64,000 nucleotides of DNA from Octopus vulgaris (taxonomy: Eukaryota), in contig OX597823.1 in assembly GCA_951406725.2 (NCBI GenBank), positions 78,926,001 to 78,990,000 of the forward strand, read 5' to 3'. The position numbers and the translations under genes are program-made. Below the pieces are notes generated by a model. It searched no databases, was not told the origin of the DNA, and saw only the letters and a program-made list of their open reading frames with translations. This document shows, one piece after another, positions 354-57,205 of the stretch; position 1 is the first letter of the stretch; each line of letters starts with the position of its first letter.

Positions 354-2761
354 TACTTACTACATGTTGCATTCTCAGGAATTATAAACACACACACATA
401 CATGCATACATACATGCACACATACATGCATACATACATGCATGCATGTGTGTGTGTGTGTGAATCAATACATAAGTAGTTTATATTTTCTCCTCACTCG
501 AATGTATTTTCGGTATTCACATCAGGCGTTCAAAAAACTATATGCATGAATGAAAGGATAGAAGTGGTAAAAATGGAGAGCCATTAGTGACTTTTCTGTT
601 TAAACTTAAACCTTCTTTTATATCAGGAGATATATATATGAAAGCAGACCAAACCTCAAAAATACACACAAAAAAAAACATTATATACCTTTAAAGTAAT
701 TTATAAATAGTTTTGAAATTACTGTAATTTCCATGAGAAACACAATTTTCCATTAACTTTCGGTGATAAGTTAGCATGGAGACCACAGGATAAAATACCC
801 CTTAACTATAACGATGTTTGTTTTGAAGTAATGCCGTATAATGTGATCTGGTTACAAAAACACTAAAGCGGAAACACGCTAGCAGTACGAGCTGATGAGA
901 GACCCTGTGAATGTTCTTTTGATGTGCTAGATATAGCAACCAGATCACCAGTAAAGCGTCTCATTAAACACTTCTCTGAAGCCGAATAAATCAATGATCA
1001 AAGATATTTCTGACATCACTACTGTGTCATTACGTTTGGCCTCGCGTATATTGTTCAAAATGTCCTTCATTTTATATGATGATAGAGTAAGATCTAGACG
1101 AAATATGGTTACATTTATAGCAGATGGAACAATTGCATAAGGTTTTCTCTTTGGCTCTAGAACACAAATGCTTTATAAGCAAGTATTTGCGGGGAAGAGT
1201 GCTTGAATGAAAATTATACATGTGTACGTAAGTATATTTGTGTACAAAGAAAGTAGTAATAATCTCCATTTGACAACAATTAATGTATGATGAATTCAAG
1301 AAGATGGAGATTTTAAATTGCAGTAAACATTGAAAATTCTTATCCCAATCACTTCATCGCTCACGAAGAAATATAGACCTAATTATAAATTTCTATGGTC
1401 CTTGAACTTATAAAACTATCTTGTTATATGAAGTATATATTTTTGTAAGTAGTATTTACTTGCTTACGTTTGAGCCATTTGACTGCGTAATCATTCCTGT
1501 AATTATGTTAATTATCCATCGAAAAGTTAGAATTGATACTTTCTGCTTTTACAATACTATTACAGTATCTGCTTTTGGTACGGTTTTTCATTTCCATAAC
1601 AGCATTTGATTCTTACTCTGTACAGTGATATTTGATGAAATATGTAAAAAGAAATTCAGAAAATCTGAAATATTGTCTTTTCTGAAAGGTGTCGATAGGA
1701 TGTTTCTGTACAAGTGGGGATTTATTTTTCTGAAAATGCGTTGGGGTAAGACTGCTTTCCGCAGTTAATTGTAATAACATTTTGGACGGATACATCCACC
1801 CTCTGCGTTCAAATGGTTAAACATTTTAATTTAAATTTTCATCATGAAATATACAAAATATAATAAAAATGGAAGGAAAATAATTCGGCTATTGAAAAGA
1901 GAACAAGAAAGGTTCAGATTTGTATTAAAACAGAGAACGATAAAAGAAAAAGAGAATAATTCAAAATATACAGTATCATAAATAATAACTTTATTAAATA
2001 TGTGGACTGTCATGAAGAAGACTATACATATACAAGCAATTGTCTCATTGTTACATAACTGATGCATTTTACTGAGGCACGAAACGACAAACGTTTTGGT
2101 GGTAGAATGGAAAATAGGATATTATATGTAATATATATATTTTCGCCGCTGGAATTAGCGCCAAAAATAGAACAAAATGGCTTTAATTAAAAATCAAAGT
2201 ACCAGGAAATATACCACTTCATATGACATTTTTCTTTTTGTATTTTCGAACCATGATGCTAGAGGTTTATAGATGAATGTAATCACATTGGATATGAGCA
2301 TAAGATGGCAAAAATATTGAAGGGAGTTTGTTGTCAGCTACGTCAACTCTCAGTAATATCCCTGTAGTTATTTTATCTAGAACTTAAGGATGACGCACAA
2401 AGTACACCTTGACGAGATTTGCATGTTCAATGTAAAGGGTCATAGCTAAATACCATCGAAATTTTAATCCACTCACGTTCGATTGTAACTGGGAGAGTCC
2501 TAACAACAAATCCAGCAATAAAACAAAGACGAAAAATTCAATTCAATTACATTCACTGTTAGTTACTATTGCTCTAATTTGTGAGTAGTATTTCATAGGT
2601 GTAAATGTCATGCAAGCCCGTGCTATTTGGGTCCAGAGGAAAGGTCATCACAGACGGCCGTGGCTGCTCTTGAGCCACCAACACCTATGAAAGAGAAGGA
2701 AATCGTTTGTTATCAAAATCCCATTATATGCCCAATAAAATCCGTTGGTAACGATGTCGTA

Positions 2762-2849
2762 CATCTCTTGGTATTGATACAGAGATTAGAAAGCACTTTT
2801 TCTTGGCGGTCTCTAACAACTATATCCGGTCCCTTGGCCTTAATTTCTG

Positions 2850-2850
<1 letters not shown>
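2762..2850 (-). mobile_element. Second R4/Dong endonuclease fragment
   Basis: Clearly similar to ~78-167; minus strand reads TEIKAKGPDIVVRDRQEK/CFLISVSIP; followed on + by (ATT)n. Confidence 0.7.
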
Positions 2851-3015
<165 letters not shown>

Positions 3016-3284
3016 ATTGATATGCAGACCAGTAAGGTAGACCGAAGCCTAATTATTCCGAAATCTGGTCCGTGATTACTTCAAAATCTGACTTGTGAGA
3101 CACTGTATACATACAGACCCAATGTGGATTTGTGGGGGTATTGAGCTAATGTACAGCAAAAGCATTTGATTACTATAAGCATATCATCATTGCAGGTTGT
3201 CAAACAAACCGGTGGCCCAATATGATATTGAGTCTTTGGCTGTGGAATCCTAATCAGTCAACCAGTCATTTACGTCAGACACCT

Positions 3285-3341
<57 letters not shown>

Positions 3342-3353
3342 CACGTGTCTACG

Positions 3354-3388
<35 letters not shown>

Positions 3389-3589
3389 CAGTATATGTGT
3401 GTGTTTGCCTGTATAGACATGTGTACATATTACATATGCATGTAGATATATGTACATATGTGTAGAAATGTAGATATGTATATGCCTGCATCTATGCATG
3501 CATACATATGTATATATATGTACGTATATATTCATATATATATATATGTATACATACATACAAACCTATATATATATATACATAAAAAC

Positions 3590-3634
<45 letters not shown>

Positions 3635-3638
<4 letters not shown>

Positions 3639-3856
3639 CAACAATTGAGGGTAAAATTAATTAGTTATTAATCAATTTCACCAAGTTTTCTGTATGTAAA
3701 AGGACCATTTAAGGAAAATTCAAAATATTACATTATATAAAAGGGGGCTTAGTAAAATAAAATAAAAGGGCTTAGTAAAATAAATTACTTTGCCACATAG
3801 TTCAGTATGTGGCAAAGTAATTTATTTTACTAAGCCCTTTTATATAATGTAATATT

Positions 3857-3862
<6 letters not shown>
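3635..3862. mobile_element. (TA)n-embedded repeat ending in a foldback hairpin (3718-3862)
   Basis: attcaaaatattacattatataaaaggg...ctttgccacata/gttcag/tatgtggcaaag...tatataatgtaatattttgaat; a related unfolded copy lies at 24700-24878 in reverse orientation. Confidence 0.7.
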
Positions 3863-3896
<34 letters not shown>

Positions 3897-4367
3897 GTGC
3901 GTACAAAATATAGGGTTGTAGTTCACAGTGAACGACTGTAAATCTTTTTTCCAAATAATAATAATGTATATGACTTGAAATGTTAGCCTTGCCTTAACGT
4001 TTGTTGTCCTCTTTAACAATTATTTTTGTGTGTATCTAGATGACTATGTGTGTGTGTATTTATAATCCATATATACTGTCTGTCTCATTTACTGGAGCTT
4101 CTACATTGCTATCTCTTAAAACCTGCTGCATTAGAAAGGTGACTTTACCTCATGGTTAATATATGTTCCGTAAAATATATAACGCATGCGAAGAACTGAG
4201 GCCGACATGAAAGACTAACATCTTAGAAGTCGGTAATCCAGTAATGGCTGCAGAATGGTAACTGTAACCAGCAAAAAAATAAATCAAAAACATTATGAAT
4301 AACAGTACTTCTTATACAATTATGAAATTTAAAATTATTCATTAAAAGAAATATAATATAGTTTGAT

Positions 4368-4465
4368 ATGATATAATATAATGTAATATAATATAATATA
4401 ATATAATATAATATAATATAATATAGTATAATATAATATAATATAATATAATATAATATAATATA
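4368..4465. repeat. (ATAAT)n pentanucleotide microsatellite
   Basis: Visible tandem repeat. Confidence 0.95.
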
Positions 4466-4639
4466 ACATAACAGCATGTCGCAAACACTTTTAACAAAAG
4501 GAATAAACTATTCAACGTATTTTCAAAGTAAAAATATATTATGATATAACATTTCTCAAATAAACAATAGCATTAACAACAAAAACGAAAAATGTATTGC
4601 GTATATAATGTTAATAGGTAAGTAAACAAAAATTCAATG

Positions 4640-4641
4640 TT

Positions 4642-4699
<58 letters not shown>

Positions 4700-4936
4700 C
4701 TGTGTGTGTGTATGTATATGTGTGTATATATATATGTATATATATATATATTTATATACATATATATACACATTTATACATATATACAAACAGATGTGTG
4801 TGTGTATACACGCGGATCTATATATATATATATATCTATATATATATTTACATATATTTACATGTATTCTCTCTCTCCCTATATGTATATACATATATAT
4901 ATATGTACATATATATATATACATATATATATATAC

Positions 4937-4984
<48 letters not shown>

Positions 4985-5267
4985 TGCGTGGGCGTATTTG
5001 GCAAGAGAAAAAATACCATCCCAAATACAACAATATATGTTTAAACACACGACTTTACATCAAGAATCTTGCAACACAAATTTATAAACACACACGCGCG
5101 AGCACACAAACGTATATATATATATATATATATTTGTATATACATACACACACATACACATATATATACGTATATGCATATATGCATATATAATATATAC
5201 ATATATACACATTTATATATATATATATATATATTCGTATGTATATATATATATATATATATATGTA

Positions 5268-5337
<70 letters not shown>

Positions 5338-5548
5338 TTTCTCTCTCCATCTATATATAGAATATCGAGGCCCATGAGCATCAACATTACTACTTTACAG
5401 TAAGCTGAATGGGTTTTGAATGGATCAGTGAAACTAAAAGTACTTTTCACTGGAAGACAAATACAATTGTAAATACACACACATACACAGAGACGCATAC
5501 ACACATAGACACAGGCACACACACATATATATGCAAGAAAATATACGC

Positions 5549-5610
<62 letters not shown>

Positions 5611-6143
5611 GTCCATGAATATAAATAAATATAAGTATATATGTAAATATTTACAAAAGATTATATTTCAATGTTTTTATTTGTGTCTGCATGTGTGTAT
5701 CTATAGATATATACATTATCTGCAAATGCTTCAAGCTTCTTTTTCTTTTCTAGCGACATTAATATGAAAAATATTTCTGTTTCTCTTTCTCTCTCTCCAT
5801 CTCTCCGTTTTTTTCTCCCCCCCTCTCTCTCTGTCTTTCTCTCACTCTCTCCTTCTCTCTGTATGCATGATTCTCTTCCATAGGATAGTTGGTTGCGTAC
5901 ACGATGGAAAAACTGTTGATTGAACTTCCATTGAACGTGCAGACATTGTTTATCTCTTTCATTTTCTCTTTTGTATTGACCGCTAACTTCACAAGTTTTT
6001 TTTTTCTCTCTCTGTTTATTTCCTCGAGGACCTTTCTGTTGAAGAGCGTCAAACTAATACACCTGCTTGTTGTGTATACACCTGTCTTCAACTCTTGTCT
6101 TTCGGTACATACCTTCATACATACACACACACACATATATATA

Positions 6144-6178
<35 letters not shown>

Positions 6179-6191
6179 ATGTATGTATATG

Positions 6192-6231
<40 letters not shown>

Positions 6232-6243
6232 CAAACACACACA

Positions 6244-6279
<36 letters not shown>

Positions 6280-6294
6280 CAAACACACACATGC

Positions 6295-6340
<46 letters not shown>
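4640..6340. repeat. Compound (TA)n/(CA)n/(CT)n microsatellite-rich region with short unique interruptions
   Basis: Visible dinucleotide arrays; source of many spurious IYIY ORFs. Confidence 0.9.
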
Positions 6341-6345
<5 letters not shown>

Positions 6346-6531
6346 GGAGTAAACACATAAATGTGAAACAAGGTGGAAAAAAGAGTACTCAAATACCAGT
6401 GGTAGAAAAGCAGCAGAAAATTCAACAAAACCTGTTACTCTGTTAATTTTTTTTTTTTTTTGCAGCACCTTTTTACGATAGCGCATTAAGGAACATACTT
6501 TAAATAAATAATAATAATACTTTAAATAAAG

Positions 6532-6565
<34 letters not shown>

Positions 6566-6605
6566 CCATGTGTGTGTGCGTTTGTGTGTGTATGTGTGTG
6601 TTTGT

Positions 6606-6990
6606 GTCATTTGACTGCCGGCACGATGGAGCATACATCACCTTTAGTCGAACAAATCGTCCCTGAAATTTATTCTTTGTAAGCCTAGTACTTATTTCAT
6701 CGGACTCTTTTACCAAACCGCTAGTTTACAGGGACGTCAACACACCAACATCGGTTGCCTAGTGATGGTGGGGGATAAACACAGACACATAAAAACAAAC
6801 ACACAAACTTTCACACAGACATATACATGACGGGCGTCTTTCAGCTTCAGTCTACCAAATCCACTTACAAAGCTTTGGTCAGCCCGTGGCTATAGTAGAA
6901 GACACTTGTCCAAGATGCCATGCAGAGGGACTGAGCCCGGAACCATGTGGTTGGTAAGCAAGCTACTTAACCCACAGCCACTCCTGCGTC
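6606..6990 (-). mobile_element. tRNA-derived SINE, family A
   Basis: Reverse complement of the family A consensus (head ggcgcaggagtggctgtgtgg with A-box-like motif, ggttcagtccc B-box-like motif, internal CA/TA tract, tail ...cagtcaaatgactgaaac). Confidence 0.85.
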
Positions 6991-7008
6991 TATATATTTG
7001 TATATATA

Positions 7009-7060
<52 letters not shown>

Positions 7061-7134
7061 CATACATATAGATATAATTATACACACCCACACACACACA
7101 TCTATATATATATATATATATATACATACATACA

Positions 7135-7227
<93 letters not shown>

Positions 7228-7332
7228 AAATAGGATAAAATCAGTATAGGAATTTATCAAGTAGTCAGCGTGAAAAACGACATCAGGGAAAAATTATTAA
7301 TTATTCACTTTAGATATATTCATTTATATTAA

Positions 7333-7512
7333 GGGCATTCATACACATAAATGCCTCACGCTACTAAGGACTCTCGAAGTCAAAACTACCATGTGTGTGT
7401 TTTGTGTGTGTGTGAGTGTGTGTGTTTGCGCGCGCGCTTTCATTTATTATGGTAGTTTTGAGTTTAAGAGTCCCTCGTAGCGTGAGGCATTTATGTGTGT
7501 ATTAATGCCTTT
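7333..7512. repeat. Imperfect inverted repeat (~60-bp arms) around a (TG)n spacer
   Basis: ggcattcatacacataaatgcctcacgctac...caaaactaccat versus atggtagttttg...gtagcgtgaggcatttatgtgtgtattaatgcc. Confidence 0.8.
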
Positions 7513-7533
7513 CATATATACATACATTCATAC

Positions 7534-7574
<41 letters not shown>

Positions 7575-7767
7575 CTGAAGTTAGTATAAGTTGAATTTGG
7601 TACTTGCTTATTCTCCAAATCTTGATGTCTTAAACTTTGTTTCTTTCAGTGCAATCCCTATGTAATCGTACCGAGCCACCATTTGCATCCTTCGAGTTAA
7701 CATGCCTACATCCTTATGAATCCTCATTGCAAAATCGCATACATGTATTTGTGTATATGAGTATGCC

Positions 7768-8170
7768 TTTACCTTTACCTTTTACTTGTTTCAGTCATTT
7801 GACTGCGGCCATGCTGGAGCACCACCTTTAGTCGAGCAAATCGACCCCAGGACTTATTCTTTGTAAGCCCAGTACTTATTCTATCGGTCTTTTTTGCCGA
7901 ACGGCTAAGTGACGGGGACGTAAACACACCAGCATCGGTTGTCAAGCAATGCTAGGGGGACAAACACAGACACACAAACACACACATACATATATATACA
8001 TATATACGACAGGCTTCTTTCAGTTTCCGTCTACCAAATCCACTCACAAGGCATTGGTCGGCCCGGAGCTATAGCAGAAGTCACTTGCCCAAGGTGCCAC
8101 GCAGTGGGACTGAACCCGGAACCATGTGGCTGGTTAGCAAGCTACTTACCACACAGCCACTCCTACGCCT
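7768..8170 (-). mobile_element. tRNA-derived SINE, family A (full length)
   Basis: Full match to the other family A copies from tail to tRNA-like head. Confidence 0.92.
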
Positions 8171-8609
8171 ATGTATATTTAAATTAGGCACCAGACAGTA
8201 AAAACCATAGATTCACAATGACTTAAATTTAAATATTAAAAAATAAATTGAAGTTCGCAGAAATTATAAGAATATAAAAACATTTCCTTTATGCTTCCAG
8301 TATGAGGAACGAAATATATGAGTGATTCCAGTAGAAGCGTTTCGAAACGGGGTGACGCATTACTCTCCCAAAATCGATAACCTTTACAGTTCAAGCATTA
8401 TATAGGGCCTCATTTATATATATGTACTTCTGAGAGATCACTATTCATAAAAGAATATACATTTTATGCTCAAAAGAGCATGAAATAGAAGAGGGACTCA
8501 AACTGAATTAAAAGCAAAAATACACAAATTAAACTATCCACTACAGTAATAGCGTAATTTATAAACGTTCTGTCTGTCTTCCAGTCTGTGTGTGTGGCTC
8601 CCTCTATAT

Positions 8610-8610
8610 T

Positions 8611-8677
<67 letters not shown>

Positions 8678-8692
8678 CTCTCTATCTATCTC

Positions 8693-8756
<64 letters not shown>

Positions 8757-8844
8757 CCTATCTCTTTTTCCTCCCCCAAAAGAAAAGCTCTACTTTGTAA
8801 TTTGTCCTGCTTGTGTTCGGCCCTGTGTGGCTAATAAAGAAACA

Positions 8845-8935
<91 letters not shown>

Positions 8936-8950
8936 CATATCTATCTATCT
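8610..8950. repeat. (TATC)n microsatellite interrupted by a ~85-bp retroelement-like 3' end (8762-8845)
   Basis: Visible repeat; the insert ends ...ccctgtgtggctaataaagaaac with an AATAAA signal. Confidence 0.85.
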
Positions 8951-9304
8951 AACTCTGTGTGTGTGTGCGTGTGTCAGCTGAATACTCAACACTAGGGGGT
9001 GGAAATCAGTTACCTCCCTTATAAAAGCACGAAACTGTCTACATTCAAAATATCGAAAGCATAGAATGAATGTCTTTACATCACTTTTATTTCCGATCAG
9101 AGTTAGGCTTTCTGTTATGTGTGTGTGTATATGTATATGTGTTTGTGTATTTGTTTGTGTGTGTATGTGTGTGTGCGTGTTTGTGTGTGTGGCTGTGTGT
9201 GTATGAATATATAATATAGTACATATATCCTCATATGTATGTGTGTGCGTGGGATTATGTGTGTTACACAAGCGAATGGAGAATGCAGTCAACACGTTTA
9301 GTAT

Positions 9305-9520
9305 TCTCTTATTCTTTTATTTGTTTTAGTCAGTTCACTGCGGCCGTGCTGGAGCACCGCCTTTACTCGAACGAATCGACCCTACGACTTGTTCTTTGTA
9401 AGCCAAGTACTTATTCTATGGATCTCTTTTGTCGAACCGTTAAATTGTGAGGAGGTGAATACACCAAAATCAGTCGTCAAGCGATGGTGGGGGAACAGAC
9501 ACAGATACGCAAATATAAGC

Positions 9521-9618
<98 letters not shown>

Positions 9619-29894: not shown

Positions 29895-31019
29895 TCAAAC
29901 ACCGGTTTCTGTGGCATTGTCTACGATTACAGTACCTGATGTCGTTGACTTTCGGTCCATCATGGAAATATGATGCATGCCAGGTTTTCGCTTTTTACAT
30001 TTGCACATACGTAATAGGCGACGATAGCTATTTTGCATGTCAGGCATACGTATCGCGTAAATGAGCGGATCAAATATAGAGTTCAGTGCAATTAGATTAT
30101 ATAGATAATACTGAGCTTGTTGTGATATCTGGTAGTAATTCATCATATCTGGTAAGTTTGTAGCACTAACGATAGTCATAGTCAACTCCATTAAACAGTA
30201 CGGCAACCAACAGATTATGTAGGATAGCAGTATAATGATTGTGGTAACGAGACCTTTGTTGTTACGGCGTATATTTGGTGCGTGACGAGTTTGCAGTTGA
30301 GGATACCTATAAATAGTTATGAATACTTGGCTATAAAGGAAAACCATTTCAAAGAGGCACAAAATGACAACAGCGAATAAAACGAAATTCGGTTCAAACA
30401 TAGTACACTTAATCGTGTCACAATAATTCAAAAATTTCTGATTCCTGCAGTTCTTGTACAAAGGTGTGAAAGGTAAAAGAAAATCAGAGAAACCACACAA
30501 TGAACCGAGCACCCACACTCCAGCAATTAATATTCCAACATGACGTCTGTCCATTAAATAAGAATGCTTCAGTGGAATATTAATAGCAATATAATGATCA
30601 AGAGCCATTGCTGCTAAGTTCAGCAAGTTGGTCAACTGTCCACTGATCATTAACGCCTCAACAACGGCATAGATACAAATTGATTTACCTTCATCTTCAC
30701 CTTCTACTGGAAACATGAAGTTATTGTTGTTGGTGAGAGATGCAGTCAAAAAGCAGAGACTGATAAATAGATCTGACATGAGCAGGCTAGTAACCAATTG
30801 CTTATTGGCCGTGAATGTACCTTTGAATTGCATTATTGCAAACAAAGAAACAGCGTTGGCAATGATAGCAACTATGCAAAGAATAATAGCTATCAAACGA
30901 TCAATCCTCATAGAACCGTTTCCGCGGAAATCAATATTTGGAAAGGTGATGTTCGAAAAGTCAGTTTTGTTCCCAAAAGTGTATTCGTAGAAAGATATGT
31001 CGAATGGGAGGTCTTCCAT
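29895..31019 (-). CDS. Class A (rhodopsin-like) 7TM GPCR, 374 aa, melanocortin/adenosine-receptor-like orphan; coding region uninterrupted
   Basis: Seven hydrophobic helices; TM1 AN, TM2 SLLMSD, TM3 MALDHYIAI..PL, TM4 W, TM5 LY, TM6 CWLP, TM7 NSIFDPLIYA, helix 8 followed by CKC; N-terminal NKT/NIT/NGS sequons. Confidence 0.96.
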   Translation of the reverse strand: MEDLPFDISFYEYTFGNKTDFSNITFPNIDFRGNGSMRIDRLIAIILCIVAIIANAVSLFAIMQFKGTFTANKQLVTSLLMSDLFISLCFLTASLTNNNNFMFPVEGEDEGKSICIYAVVEALMISGQLTNLLNLAAMALDHYIAINIPLKHSYLMDRRHVGILIAGVWVLGSLCGFSDFLLPFTPLYKNCRNQKFLNYCDTIKCTMFEPNFVLFAVVILCLFEMVFLYSQVFITIYRYPQLQTRHAPNIRRNNKGLVTTIIILLSYIICWLPYCLMELTMTIVSATNLPDMMNYYQISQQAQYYLYNLIALNSIFDPLIYAIRMPDMQNSYRRLLRMCKCKKRKPGMHHISMMDRKSTTSGTVIVDNATETGV

Positions 31020-31034
31020 GTCCTCTGGATTAAA

Positions 31035-31054
31035 CTGAAAGGAAAGAAGAAGTG
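31035..31054 (-). promoter_or_regulatory. Putative 3' splice acceptor of the GPCR coding exon
   Basis: Minus strand cacttcttctttcctttcAG|tttaatccagaggacATG: polypyrimidine tract plus CAG, 15 nt before the ATG. Confidence 0.7.
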
Positions 31055-31824
31055 AACAACGTTAACTGTTATTTAAATGTACAAAGATAATTTATTTATG
31101 TGAACAAAACAATAAAGTTAATTGTTATTCAAGTAAACAAAGTTATTTTTTATTTAAGTGGATAAAAATAACGGACATCTAAGCAAACGAAGATGTGTTA
31201 CGTGAACAAATGTAACTGACATTTAAGCGAACAACGATAATTGTTATTCAAATTAACTGTGATAGCTGTTATTTAACAAAAATAAATATAACTATCATTT
31301 AAGATTATAAATGTAGCTGATATTTATGTCAAAATGAATATTTTTTAGTTTTTAACAGGTAAGAATTAAATACGTGGCAGAAGGAACCAGAAAGGAACAT
31401 CAAGGTTTCTATGTCTGAATTATATGCCTGCAAAGATTCGTACAGTAAACTGGAAATAAATTGCTGCAAGCTGGTAGTCTAAACCCCCGAAACAGGGTTT
31501 ATTCCGATTCATTTTGAGTCACTGTTAACATTCCATTCTCTCCATATATTGAAGTCGGATCTATAAACTATTTTCAGCAACAGATCAGTAGGGAACACAA
31601 ACAACTGAAGAAAGTCACTAGGACGATAAGTTTGGAAGTTTAGAACTAATGAAGTCGATTGTGGCTGGCAGGGGATCTCAGATGAAATTCTTTTGTAGGC
31701 GAATGTTAATTCTGTGTATGCTGTTCCACTCAGACGAACCGTACTGGATAAGGAGCAAAATTGTCGAGTGATAACTGTTGATGATATAGCAGAGTTTCCA
31801 AAGAGAACAAGTCTAATAATCAAT

Positions 31825-52419: not shown

Positions 52420-52458
<39 letters not shown>

Positions 52459-52523
52459 ATGTATATTATCTGGAGTTATATTTGCGTTAATTATAACGGT
52501 AGGGAATACGGAAATTGGTACAT

Positions 52524-52562
<39 letters not shown>

Positions 52563-52621
52563 TATCTGGAGTGTATATCTGCGTTAATTATAGCGGTAGG
52601 GAATACGGAAATTGGTAATCC

Positions 52622-53025
52622 TATATATATATATGTGTGTGTACATATGTATATATATATATGCATAGATATGTGTACATATGTGTATATATATGTGTAC
52701 ATATGTGTACATATGTATATATGTATATATATATGTGTACATATGTATATATATGTATATATATGTATGTATATATATGTATATATATGTATGTATATAT
52801 ATGTACATATGTATGTATATATATGTATGTATCTATATATATATATATATGTATGTATATATTTATATATAGCTATGTATATATATGTATATATATATAT
52901 CTATACAAGTATGTATATGTATAAGTATATATATATATGTATATACATATGTATATGTATATGTGTATATATATATATATTTGAAAATGTATGTCTGTAT
53001 ATATGAGTACATATATATGTATATA

Positions 53026-53055: not shown

Positions 53056-53058
<3 letters not shown>

Positions 53059-53214
53059 TTTTGCCATTTCAATATGGCTAACCCCTAAGGGTGGATGCTA
53101 CTGTAGTTTTTAGCCCCAGGAGGACACACTCCTCCAGCTGGCCATAAACACACTATCTGTGTCCTGTCAGTATTTGCAAAGGGAAGTCATCCTTCCCGTC
53201 TTCAACTTATGATA

Positions 53215-53259
53215 CACACGGACTCGAGTTTCGAGGTATTGACCTCTCGTCAGCGTGTG
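53215..53259 (-). ncRNA. Type I hammerhead ribozyme (left copy)
   Basis: Exact reverse complement of 53582-53626; predicted cleavage between 53221 and 53220. Confidence 0.9.
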
Positions 53260-53581
53260 ACAATCATAGTTGTCGCCGAGAATTAGATTTCCTTCACAAA
53301 TACTTATACTTTTTCCAGCGTCCACTGTCGCTGATATTGAAAAAGTGAAATCAAACAATGATAAATATCAAAGTGAGTTATATACAGTAGCGGTAACACA
53401 TCGTGACGTATTTTTGCCATTTCAATATGGCTAACCCCTAAGGGTGGATGCTACTGTATATAACTCACTTTGATATTTATCATTGTTTGATTTCACTTTT
53501 TCAATATCAGCGACAGTGGGCGCTGGAAAAAGTATAAGTATTTGTGAAGGAAATCTAATTCTCGGCGACAACTATGATTGT

Positions 53582-53626
53582 CACACGCTGACGAGAGGTC
53601 AATACCTCGAAACTCGAGTCCGTGTG
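53582..53626 (+). ncRNA. Type I hammerhead ribozyme (right copy)
   Basis: cacacg-CUGACGA-gaggu-caau-accuc-GAAA-cucga-GUC-cgugug: complete conserved core, 6-bp stem I, 5-bp stem II closed by G-C, short palindromic stem III; predicted cleavage after 53620. Confidence 0.92.
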
Positions 53627-55264
53627 TATCATAAGTTGAAGACGGGAAGGATGACTTCCCTTTGCAAATACTGACAGGACACAGATAGTGTGTCTATGGC
53701 CAGCTGGAGGAGTGTGTCCTCCTGGGGCTAAAAACTACAGTAGCATCCACCCTTAGGGGTTAGCCATATTGAAATGGCAAAAATACGTCACGATGTGTTA
53801 CCGCTACTGTATATAACTCACTTTGATATTTATCATTGTTATATATATATATATATATACATATATAAATATATGAATGTATGTGTGTGTGTGTGTATGT
53901 GTGTGTATGTATATATGTATATGTGTGTATTTGTTGTTTAGAGACACACACAGATCTCAATATGCATTTCACAGTTACGATAAGGCAAGAGGATCACCTT
54001 CAAAAATATTACGATTCATTGGACAGATTTTTATCGTTCAAGATTGACCCGGACATAATCCATAATACGAATATCATGGACGCCAAAACAAAACATTTCT
54101 AGGTTGTATCTTTCCAATGTCATTGGTTACGAATCACTTTATTGTTTGTCAAAGAATTTTACACGTAAATCTTCTCTACATAGATATTAAAATAAACGAA
54201 GATAAGCACATGGAGGTAACCTATTATTTATTCTCGGTTTCTCTCTCGTTTTCATTCTCAGATCATATCTTCCATATGTATCCTGTCATTTTAAATAATA
54301 TTTCAATATAGAAATAGAATATTGTACGGTAGGAACAGTCTAGAAGGAAAAATTTGAAAAAATATGTTTAAAAACCCCTTAAAGTGGTTAACACGATTGC
54401 CAAATCAAGAAGAAATGTAAATGTCATGTCGACATATATAGACGTGTGATATATATGTTTAAAAGTTCCAAGAAACATCTTGAAACGATAAGGAAAGAAG
54501 AAAATGCTCTTGTTTTACATTTGTTTTATTTTGCATTCGATTTAGTTCCATTTAGTTTCTGCTGCCAACTGAAATTAAGTCGAGGAATTGTAAAAGTGAC
54601 AGCCACTCCATTTGTTTTCCTGAAACTAAATTTGCTTCCGTATACACTACTTGATGTTGGACGTTGGCAATATGGCGAAGGGTGAACAAGTAAAATTTTG
54701 AGTTATTGCTTTACAATCGTTTTTTGGCGGCTTTGAGTTCAAATCAGGAGAACCTCAAATTTCCATTTTATCCATAATTTTTTACGTAGGACAAATGCCA
54801 ATAGCACTCGAAGTTCGAATAATTTCATTATGCCCATATTCTCAAGAAACAGAGAAAATAGATATTTTGTCTAGTTACGAATAATCAAGATTTAAGTGGG
54901 TTAGATTTAATATAATGGGCAGAGTGGAGGATTAAATATTGAAGCGAGTATAGTTTTGTATTTGTATGTTCTGAGTTCCATATATGTTGTATATAATGTA
55001 TTTTATGTATTTATTGCAATTCAAGTCTTGTGTTTACTTTAGATAAGAATTTTTAATAATTTTTACGCAAGAGGTAAAATTTCTTTGTTTGATACCCAAT
55101 TTAAACAAATTTCTGTAACGTAAGTTGCACATGCACTCAAAAGATATATGGTTACCTTTATATCTTGTAATATGCCTTCTAAAAATGTACAGTTTCTTCT
55201 TCTGCTAGGTAGAAGAATAGTTTCTTCTTCTGCTAGGTAGCAGAATAGTTATGAAGCGAGGCAA

Positions 55265-55455
55265 AAATTATTTGCAGCAATTTCGTCCGTCTTTACATTC
55301 TGAGTTCAAATTCCGCTCAGGTGGATTTTATCTTTCATGATCTAGGAGTCGGTAAAATAAGCACCAGTCGGTCACTGGGATCGATGAACCGGCTTACCCA
55401 CAGTGCCCCCCCCCAAAAAAAAAATTGCTGACCTTGTGCCAAAATTTGAAGCCAA
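55265..55455 (+). mobile_element. SINE family B, diverged
   Basis: tttcgtccgtctttacattctgagttcaaattccgc...gtcggtaaaataagcaccag...ccttgtgccaaaatttgaa. Confidence 0.8.
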
Positions 55456-56094: not shown

Positions 56095-56715
56095 TCTTTT
56101 CTACTCTAGGCACAAGGCCCGAAATCTTGGAGGAGGACGCCAGTCGATTAGATCGAACCCTAGTACGCAACTGGTACTTAATTTATCGACCCCGAAAGGA
56201 TGAAAGGCAAAGGCGACCACGGCGGAATTTGAACTCAGAAGGTAAAAACAGACGAAATACCTATTTCTTTACTACCCACAAGGGGCTAAACAGACAGAGG
56301 ACAAACAAGGACAGACAAACGGATTAAGTCGATTATATCGACCACAGTGCGTAACTGGTACTTATTTAATCGACCCCGAGTGGATGAAAGTCCAAGTCGA
56401 CCTCGGCGGAATTTGAACTCAGAACGTAACGGCAGATGAAATACCCATTTCTCTACTGCCCACAAGGGGCTAAACACAGAGAGGACAAACAAGGACAAAC
56501 AAAGGGACTAATTCGGTTATATCGACCCCAGTGCGTAACTGGTACTTATTTAATCGACCCCGAATGGATGAAAGGCAAAGTTGACCTCGGCGGAATTTGA
56601 ACTCAGAACGTAACGGCAGACGAAATACCACTAAGCATTTCGCCCAGCATGCTAACGTTCTTTATTTCTTTACTGCCCAAAAGGGGATAAACAAGGACAG
56701 ACAAAGGGACTAAGT
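56095..56715 (-). mobile_element. SINE family B, three-core form plus extra linker fragment
   Basis: Three tandem ~180-bp core and linker units. Confidence 0.9.
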
Positions 56716-56888: not shown

Positions 56889-57205
56889 AGGCGGTGAGCT
56901 CGCAGAAACATTAGTACGCCGGGCGAAATGCTTTGAGGTATTTCGTCTGTCGTTACGTTCTGAGTTCAAATTCCGCCGAGGTCGACTAAGCCTTTCATCC
57001 TTTCGGAGTCGACGAAATAAGTACCAGTTACGCACTGGGGTCGATATAATCGACTTAATCCGTTTGTCTGTCCTTGTTTATCCTCTCTGTGTTTAGCCCC
57101 TTGTGGGTAGTAAAGAAACATGTATTTCGTCTGCCGTTACGTTCGGTGTTCAAATTCCGCCGAGGTCGACTTTGCCTTTCATCCTTTCGGGTAGTAAAGA
57201 AATAA
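56889..57205 (+). mobile_element. SINE family B (head, core, linker, partial second core)
   Basis: aggcggtgagctcgcagaaac...ttctgagttcaaattccgccgaggtcgac. Confidence 0.9.

What the first reader, a model, noticed from the sequence alone, without database searches (positions are those of the whole stretch)
53056..53840. Candidate retrozyme: 353-nt hammerhead RNA unit inserted as circularly permuted, over-unit-length copies
Seen: a 353-bp non-coding unit contains a complete type I hammerhead (CUGACGA / GAAA / GUC). Stem I extends beyond an internal loop (caacuaugau-ugu-cacacg ... cgugug-u-aucauaaguug) that could dock with loop II (CAAU). The unit has further hairpins (gggaag/cttccc, ggagga/tcctcc, gccat/atggc, tacagtagc/gctactgta). 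The left tract spans about 403 bp and the right about 391 bp, so each wraps past its own start, and they end at different points of the unit, both running into (TA)n. Known: metazoan non-LTR retrozymes are tandem units of a few hundred nt with type I hammerheads that accumulate as circular RNAs and are thought to use Penelope-like element enzymes. Inference: this is a young (2 mismatches in 336 bp) insertion reverse-transcribed from a circular or multimeric ribozyme RNA. I cannot tell whether this cephalopod family has been described.
Basis: partly seen in the sequence, partly recalled or inferred. Interest (0 to 1): 0.9.

Follow-up and report, generated by a model that had tools for sequence, protein, structure and literature searches.

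The report
Hammerhead retrozyme with Penelope two-site ends
This is a young copy of a 353-base mobile repeat carrying a hammerhead ribozyme motif, whose head-to-head copies nearly always end at two fixed points 46 bases apart, one per side, the footprint of Penelope-like retrotransposon enzymes, which likely copy it from a circular or multimeric RNA.

Summary
The two tracts are head-to-head: the left arm is on the minus strand. The unit is a young family with several hundred insertions, mostly in (TA)n. Its 3' ends are not random permutations. They fall at two fixed sites, A (unit 342-345) and B (35-38), 46 nt apart. Of 61 inverted insertions, 53 have one A and one B end, none has A+A or B+B, and 8 have one off-site end. 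A sister family about 69% identical keeps both sites. Two autonomous Neptune-type Penelope-like families in the same genome follow the same one-short-one-long rule in 22 of 23 inverted copies. Five non-microsatellite loci show 12-15 nt duplications. Arms run up to six units and read through the ribozyme cut site, so the template was a circle or an uncleaved multimer. Best model: a Penelope-like RT/GIY-YIG enzyme primes both ends of a staggered break from the two sites. Untested: self-cleavage, a circular RNA, and which enzyme family is the partner. Verdict: a new member of a known kind that makes the Penelope integration mechanism testable.

The parts
53056..53458 (-). Left arm, 403 nt, unit 287 to 353 then 1 to 336. 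Its outward 3' end at unit 336 is an A-class end, 6-9 nt short of the usual 342/345, running into (TA)n.
53450..53840 (+). Right arm, 391 nt, unit 1 to 353 then 1 to 38. Its outward 3' end is at fixed site B.
53450..53458 (.). Inner junction: a 9-nt overlap of the two arms' 5' ends, formed by the unit's own inverted repeat. It is the longest overlap among 44 junctions measured.
53569..53638 (+). Type I hammerhead with extended stem I. Core 53582-53626; predicted cut after 53620.
53613..53618 (+). Palindromic helix III (CUCGAG). Related families have CUAUAG and CUGCAG. Predicted to pair between two hammerheads (dimer form).
   Evidence: PMC4209133 passages
53215..53259 (-). Second hammerhead core, in the left arm; predicted cut after 53221 on the minus strand.
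   Evidence: mirror position
53736..53811 (+). Terminal multi-branch domain closed by a 9-bp stem (53736-53744 with 53803-53811) that encloses site A. The stem covaries in the sister family.
53791..53794 (+). Fixed site A (unit 342/345), read through in this arm. Inferred start site of reverse transcription.
53795..53840 (+). The 46-nt A-to-B interval, equivalent to the Penelope-like 'tail'. Site B is at 53837/53840.
   Evidence: PMC11167929
52622..53055 (.). Left flank: degenerate (TA)n microsatellite, the target site.
53841..53874 (.). Right flank: (TA)n microsatellite, the target site.

Best explanation
It is a non-autonomous hammerhead repeat (non-LTR retrozyme) whose inverted copies end at two fixed sites, one per side, likely because a Neptune-type Penelope-like RT/GIY-YIG enzyme cuts (TA)n with a stagger and would prime both broken ends on the same circular or multimeric RNA, one at site A and one at site B. 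Shown here: the unit, the family, the two fixed ends and their one-of-each pairing, (TA)n targeting, duplications at non-microsatellite targets, arms of up to six units, one haplotype shared by both arms, microhomology at inner junctions, and the same end rule in two autonomous families. Inferred: tandem transcripts self-cleave as dimeric hammerheads and are ligated to 353-nt circles; the enzyme, probably a dimer, starts two cDNAs 46 nt apart; each runs a variable distance round the template; the two cDNA ends anneal through a few bases and are repaired into a head-to-head insertion. When only one end extends, a direct insertion results.
For: Ends: 53 of 61 inverted insertions are A+B, none A+A or B+B, 8 have one off-site end; in the set chosen by hammerhead match on contigs 1-3 the count is 23 of 23 among those with both ends on-site, of 27 inverted. 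Direct insertions end at A 30, B 14, other 4 of 48. Sister family: ends at 153 and 199, 46 nt apart, 13 of 19 inverted A+B and none A+A or B+B, counted by eye. Autonomous families: one short and one long end in 12 of 12 resolved inverted PLE-A copies and 10 of 11 PLE-B copies. Both have intact, near-identical ORFs of 784 and 811 aa with RT, a CxxC motif and a GIY-YIG-type C-terminus. Targets: 91 of 109 loci have (TA)n on at least one flank; 5 of the 18 without show 12-15 nt flanking duplications including 1-2 nt of microhomology. Arm haplotypes agree at 36 allele calls against 1; permuted arms give 0.20 on average and 0.46 at most. 68 of 86 A arms pass the ribozyme cut site, and only 2 of 170 5' ends lie at it. 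Locus-private alleles fill all units in 14 cases. Overlaps of 3 nt or more occur at 13 of 31 filler-free junctions against about 5.5% at random. PAc in vitro cuts and extends both strands and starts at two internal sites that bound the tail (PMC11167929).
Against: No sequence similarity was found between the unit and PLE-A or PLE-B, so the partner is not identified. Their tails (about 34-38 and 42-43 nt) do not exactly equal 46 nt. The three junction-level chimeras with PLE-A or PLE-B (L004, L081, L164) each have an off-site end and could be neighbouring insertions plus deletion; L265 shows such neighbours sharing a TA tract. One PLE-B copy has two long ends (L275). The window's own copy is the single arm-discordant case and its A end is short. 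A few arrays are mosaic (L003, L070, L073), which a monomer circle does not explain. Conversion between inverted arms could inflate arm agreement, although private variants are on one arm in 75 cases and on both in 12. No RNA-level evidence was obtained.
Confidence: 0.8

Rival explanations
1. Same enzyme and same two sites, but the template is an uncleaved linear multimeric transcript from genomic tandem arrays. No circle is involved and the hammerhead is dispensable for insertion.
For: In vitro, PAc inserts from unprocessed RNA and ribozyme mutants do not change insertion (PMC11167929). Eight of nine Xenopus retrozyme dimers did not cleave (bioRxiv 10.64898/2026.07.22.740005). Mosaic arrays exist, and in L070 both arms show the same mosaic order counted from the 3' end. 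The sister family carries a C3U core variant.
Against: Locus-private alleles fill whole arrays, for example 5 of 5 units in L064, 6 of 6 in L070 and 4 of 4 in L023, which needs a monomer-to-multimer step. Recurrent alleles fill all covering units in 260 of 296 cases. The hammerhead helices covary across families.
Confidence: 0.3
2. The inverted structure comes from one priming event followed by fold-back: the new cDNA, or an antisense RNA, primes on itself, as proposed for rotifer Penelope elements.
For: Proposed in PMC3846280 (passages). In about 14 of 44 junctions the two 5' ends lie within 30 nt of each other, against about 8 expected (counted by eye).
Against: Fold-back on the cDNA limits the second arm's length. 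16 of 49 two-arm insertions, the window's included, break that limit, and the 33 that fit equal the 33.8 expected for independent arms. Most junctions join distant unit positions.
Confidence: 0.07
3. These are solo or truncated pLTRs of an unfound autonomous Penelope-like element, later duplicated locally as satellite DNA.
For: Xenopus retrozymes are homologous to pLTRs (bioRxiv 10.64898/2026.07.22.740005). Only the best candidates of each genome search were scored, so a rare master element could be missed.
Against: None of 109 loci continues from the unit into an ORF that shares it. Head-to-tail unit junctions are seamless at dispersed loci, and 47 of 56 insertions on contigs 1-3 total more than one unit.
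Confidence: 0.08
4. A LINE (L1- or RTE-like) enzyme mobilises it, with ordinary twin priming making the inversions.
For: LINE ORF fragments are common in the flanks. Twin priming gives inversions with junction microhomology (recalled, not looked up).
Against: There is no poly(A) or simple-repeat tail. The second end is at a fixed site, not a random internal one. The geometry is the same as in the autonomous Penelope-like families here.
Confidence: 0.03

Closest known systems
Metazoan non-LTR retrozymes (coral, mussel, axolotl; Cervera and de la Pena 2020, PMC7229834, parts 2-4 of 6 read)
   Same: Tandem units of 150-450 bp (about 350-390 in mussel, 330 and 350 in axolotl) with one type I hammerhead, low GC, no ORF, a self-paired predicted circle, and duplications longer than 4 bp when present.
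   Different: Those were shown to self-cleave and accumulate as circles; this one is untested. The parts read and a term search report no inverted insertions, fixed 3' ends or microsatellite targeting, and do not mention octopus or cephalopods.
Vertebrate retrozymes as non-autonomous Penelope-like derivatives (bioRxiv 10.64898/2026.07.22.740005, parts 1-3 of 5 read)
   Same: Same conclusion, that Penelope-like elements mobilise retrozymes.
   Different: Their evidence is co-occurrence and pLTR homology. Here there is no detectable pLTR homology; the evidence is the integration footprint itself.
PAc, Poseidon-clade element of Anolis (Frangieh et al. 2024, PMC11167929, parts 1-2 of 4 read)
   Same: Two internal start sites bounding a tail, AT-rich targets, both strands cut and extended, predicted dimer, hammerhead upstream of the sites.
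   Different: PAc is autonomous with a 30-40 nt tail. The text read does not link the two sites to opposite ends of one insertion and reports no start-site difference between strands.
Penelope/Neptune/Naiad insertion architecture (Craig et al. 2021, PMC8557442; Arkhipova et al. 2013, PMC3846280; passages read)
   Same: [quoted passage not shown]
   Different: Described qualitatively for elements with ORFs and pLTRs. Here the rule is near-absolute, counted in four families of one genome, and applies to a 353-nt non-coding unit with a 46-nt tail.

Membership tests
Type I hammerhead ribozyme | Catalytic core and three helices in type I topology | tested here: met
   RF00163 full-length alignment, 32.2 bits, E 5.9e-6, 1.8 bits under the gathering score. 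Compensatory changes in stem I across three lineages (only 6 related sequences).
Type I hammerhead ribozyme | Self-cleavage after the NUH triplet | not testable with these tools
   Needs in vitro transcription. The palindromic helix III folds only as a dimer.
Non-LTR retrozyme | Short (about 150-450 nt) non-coding unit with one type I hammerhead, in tandem repeats | tested here: met
   353-nt unit, arrays of up to six units.
Non-LTR retrozyme | Dispersed multicopy family without LTR or ORF | tested here: met
   412 exact 41-nt hammerhead matches and 1,994 matches of a 23-mer with up to 3 mismatches, controls 0. No ORF shares the unit. PBS and PPT were not searched for.
Non-LTR retrozyme | Highly self-paired predicted circle | tested here: met
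   -117 kcal/mol, z = -6.2; the reverse strand gives z = -4.2.
Non-LTR retrozyme | Accumulates as unit-length linear and circular RNA | not testable with these tools
Penelope-like-mobilised element | Two fixed 3' ends separated by a tail | tested here: met
   Sites A and B, 46 nt apart; 158 of 170 outward 3' ends are on-site.
Penelope-like-mobilised element | Head-to-head inverted 5'-truncated arm with the tail at one end only | tested here: met
   61 of 109 inverted; 53 A+B, none A+A or B+B.
Penelope-like-mobilised element | AT-rich or microsatellite targets and duplications of about 10 bp | tested here: met
   91 of 109 with a (TA)n flank; 12-15 nt duplications at 5 of 18 other loci.
Penelope-like-mobilised element | Shares terminal sequence with an identified autonomous partner | tested here: not met
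   No blastn similarity to PLE-A or PLE-B copies. Other Penelope-like families seen in flanks were not followed.
Neptune/Nematis-type PLE (candidate partners PLE-A, PLE-B) | [quoted passage not shown] | tested here: met
   RVT_1 in both; GIY-YIG hit in PLE-A just under its cut-off, none reported for PLE-B; homologues of PLE-B carry GIY-YIG. Motif read from translations. No tree with reference clades was built, so Neptune versus Nematis is open.

The most novel reading that the evidence does not exclude
Penelope-like enzymes integrate by programmed double priming: one enzyme dimer on one RNA starts one cDNA at each of two fixed sites, one for each end of a staggered break. Here the RNA is a ligated 353-nt ribozyme circle copied by rolling circle and recognised by shape, without sequence homology to its partner. 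This would explain the tail, the head-to-head inversions and the tandem arrays in a single mechanism, and would be direct genomic evidence of circle-templated retrozyme integration in animals.
Probability: 0.45. Interest if true: 0.75.

Novelty: new member of a known kind. Interest (0 to 1): 0.55.

Why it matters
The element class is known, and mobilisation by Penelope-like elements has been proposed. What is new is the quality of the footprint. Craig et al. 2021 call the origin of Penelope-like tandem and inverted structures undefined, and Cervera and de la Pena 2020 only nominate these elements as a candidate. This family shows that the two in vitro start sites map one to each end of an insertion, in four families of one genome. 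It also supplies a 353-nt substrate and two intact, recently active candidate enzymes. That makes two open questions directly testable: how Penelope-like elements finish integration, and whether an animal circular ribozyme RNA is a real reverse-transcription template.

Tried and rejected
Rfam at the gathering threshold found nothing in the window. The microRNA-family hits at relaxed threshold come from the long inverted repeat and the TA tracts. Random circular permutation of the 3' ends is rejected. Cleaved linear monomer as template is rejected: 2 of 170 5' ends lie at the cut site against about 2.4 expected, and most arms cross it. Fold-back as the general route is rejected. A-to-I editing captured in copies is not seen: A>G 16 against T>C 21 among rare single-unit changes, and 6 against 2 among whole-array changes. 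No sequence was found shared with PLE-A or PLE-B termini. A pair of hammerheads 3.2 kb apart on contig 2 was a local duplication with no ORF between them (L080). Expression: no RNA holder listed, and no reads were laid, so expression is open. The Pfam family first asked for was not in the library. Earlier findings of this scan: nothing by sequence or by words. Three scripts stopped on indexing errors; the analyses were repeated, and the end sequences printed before the error were used. Nine literature searches listed no cephalopod retrozyme and no analysis of retrozyme ends. Repbase, Dfam, subscription journals and all supplements were not seen and may hold this family.

Full report
Observation. 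The window holds two tracts of one 353-nt unit between (TA)n microsatellites. The left tract, 53056-53458, is on the minus strand and runs from unit position 287 to 336 (403 nt). The right tract, 53450-53840, is on the plus strand and runs from 1 to 38 (391 nt). They overlap by 9 nt and differ at 2 of 336 bases. Unit positions count from 53450. Each arm carries a type I hammerhead: RF00163, 32.2 bits, E 5.9e-6, gathering score 34. Helix III is a 6-nt palindrome that does not fold alone but pairs as a dimer, as described for most animal type I hammerheads (PMC4209133, passages).

Family. The genome is 2.8 Gb. A search with the unit gave 2,553 candidates, of which 40 were scored, with many copies at 99-100% identity. 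There are 412 exact matches to the 41-nt hammerhead and 1,994 to a 23-mer with up to 3 mismatches; controls were 0. I analysed 109 insertions: 56 from all exact hammerhead matches listed on contigs 1-3, 16 further best hits, and 37. L037 and L157 were dropped as duplicates of L032 and L156. Contig 1 alone holds at least 53, which extrapolates to about 650 or more genome-wide. Rare substitutions run at 0.4% in the main subfamily, so it is young. A second subfamily about 90% identical makes up 28 of the 109. A sister family about 69% identical, with units of 352-358 nt, has 2,154 candidates. Across these lineages stem I, the closing stem of the terminal domain and other helices change in compensatory fashion: 9 of 65 pairs, in six related sequences. 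Helix III stays palindromic: CUCGAG, CUAUAG, CUGCAG.

Ends. The 3' ends are fixed. They fall at site A (342 or 345) or site B (35 or 38), 46 nt apart. I scored 336-345 as A and 33-42 as B. Of 61 inverted insertions, 53 have one A and one B end, none has two of a kind, and 8 have one off-site end, mostly in non-TA flanks. The set was selected for holding the A-B interval, so the fair test is the contig 1-3 set: 23 of 23 with both ends on-site, among 27 inverted. Direct insertions end at A in 30, B in 14 and elsewhere in 4 of 48; one inverted locus (L162) was scored as direct because one arm has a deletion. The window's copy fits the rule, but its A end is 6-9 nt short. The sister family ends at the homologous positions 153 and 199; 13 of 19 inverted copies are A+B and none A+A or B+B (by eye). 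91 of 109 loci have (TA)n on at least one side. Of the other 18, five show flanking duplications of 12-15 nt including 1-2 nt of microhomology, three lie in trinucleotide repeats, and the rest show no clear duplication. The 5' ends vary, with a hot spot at 281-305 (28 of 170; p about 3e-5) and no excess at the ribozyme cut (2 of 170).

Template. 68 of 86 A arms and 47 of 72 B arms cross the cut site, and arms reach six units. The template was therefore a ligated circle or an uncleaved multimer. Recurrent alleles fill all covering units of a locus in 260 of 296 cases, and private alleles fill whole arrays in 14 cases, against 3 partial and 125 single-unit. That points to a monomer-to-multimer step. 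A few mosaic arrays (L003, L070, L073) point to multimer templates in some events. The two arms share haplotype alleles 36 to 1; permuted arms give 0.20, at most 0.46. The one discordant case is the window's own copy, at unit 71. Conversion between arms cannot be excluded, but private variants lie on one arm in 75 cases and on both in 12. Among 31 junctions without filler, 13 overlap by 3 nt or more, against about 5.5% at random. Fold-back cannot be the general route, since 16 of 49 insertions break its length limit.

Enzyme. Flanks revealed two autonomous Penelope-like families with RT, a CX4CxxC motif and a C-terminal endonuclease region. PLE-A has a 784-aa frame with copies differing by 0-48 of 2,352 bases. 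PLE-B has an 811-aa frame with copies differing by 2-15 bases. Both carry a minimal variant hammerhead with a palindromic helix III, insert in (TA)n, and have a short and a long 3' end. Inverted copies have one of each in 12 of 12 resolved PLE-A cases and 10 of 11 PLE-B cases. The tails are about 34-38 and 42-43 nt. Neither shares detectable sequence with the unit. Three of the retrozyme loci join directly to one of them without a TA tract: L004 head-to-head with PLE-A, L081 and L164 with PLE-B. Each has an off-site end, and shared targets create neighbours (L265), so these are suggestive only. Other Penelope-like families were seen and not followed. The partner is not identified.

Mechanism. 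PAc protein cuts and extends both target strands, starts at two internal sites that bound the genomic tail, is predicted to be a dimer, and does not need ribozyme cleavage in vitro (PMC11167929, parts 1-2 of 4 and passages; supplements not seen). Penelope-like insertions are known to carry an inverted truncated copy and a tail often at one end only (PMC8557442 and PMC3846280, passages). The simplest reading is that the enzyme makes a staggered break, primes one end at A and the other at B on the same RNA, and the two cDNAs anneal and are repaired. I put mobilisation by a Penelope-like enzyme with two-site priming at about 0.8. Within that, a circle as the usual template is about 0.6.

Comparison and novelty. 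The unit meets every sequence-level feature of animal non-LTR retrozymes (PMC7229834, parts 2-4 of 6); self-cleavage and circular RNA are untested. A 2026 preprint already argues from co-occurrence and pLTR homology that vertebrate retrozymes derive from Penelope-like elements (10.64898/2026.07.22.740005, parts 1-3 of 5; supplements closed). PMC8490949 (passages) added nothing. Nine searches listed no cephalopod retrozyme and no study of retrozyme ends; repeat databases and supplements were not seen. The element is a new member of a known kind. Its value is the near-absolute one-site-per-end rule, and a small substrate with live candidate enzymes for testing it. Interest 0.55.

Noticed in passing
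L135 (about 965-9529) and L133-L152: PLE-A: a very young autonomous Neptune-type family with a unit of about 4.4 kb, a 784-aa RT-EN frame, an upstream frame of about 400 aa and a variant minimal hammerhead. Many copies are intact and near-identical.
   Followed up: partly
L271-L282: PLE-B: a second young Neptune-type family with an 811-aa frame and a tail of about 42 nt. Both of its end sites are followed by a TATATA-like motif in the element itself, unlike the retrozyme's.
   Followed up: partly
L004 1265-1290; L081 3720-3790; L164 3229-3270: Direct junctions between retrozyme and PLE-A or PLE-B with short retrozyme-derived filler; possible co-integration or template switching.
   Followed up: partly
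L221-L250: Older sister retrozyme family (about 69% identical) with a C3U hammerhead core and the same two ends.
   Followed up: yes
L199 1146-1346: Fragments of a third related retrozyme lineage with helix III CUGCAG.
   Followed up: no
unit 281-305 (window 53730-53754): Hot spot of 5' truncation at the start of the terminal domain, perhaps where the polymerase meets protein-bound RNA. Unexplained.
   Followed up: partly
window 29898-31061 (-): A 388-aa open frame with a rhodopsin-family seven-transmembrane receptor domain (PF00001, E 8e-24), 22 kb from the insertion.
   Followed up: no
window 56142-56629 and 55280-55338, 56940-56998: A different 184-bp tandem repeat (2.6 copies) with related dispersed pieces; SINE-like by my recall, no Rfam match at the gathering threshold.
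   Followed up: no
window 52430-52658: A 96-bp duplicated unit embedded in TA tracts just left of the insertion.
   Followed up: no
(window 53450-53840): Twenty public runs from 10 studies under seven organism codes hold 0.69-0.94 of the sampled words, so the family may be shared by related species.
   Followed up: no
L187, L160, L069, L166, L146, L221: Fragments of further Penelope-like families, 28-65% identical to PLE-A, any of which could be the true partner.
   Followed up: no
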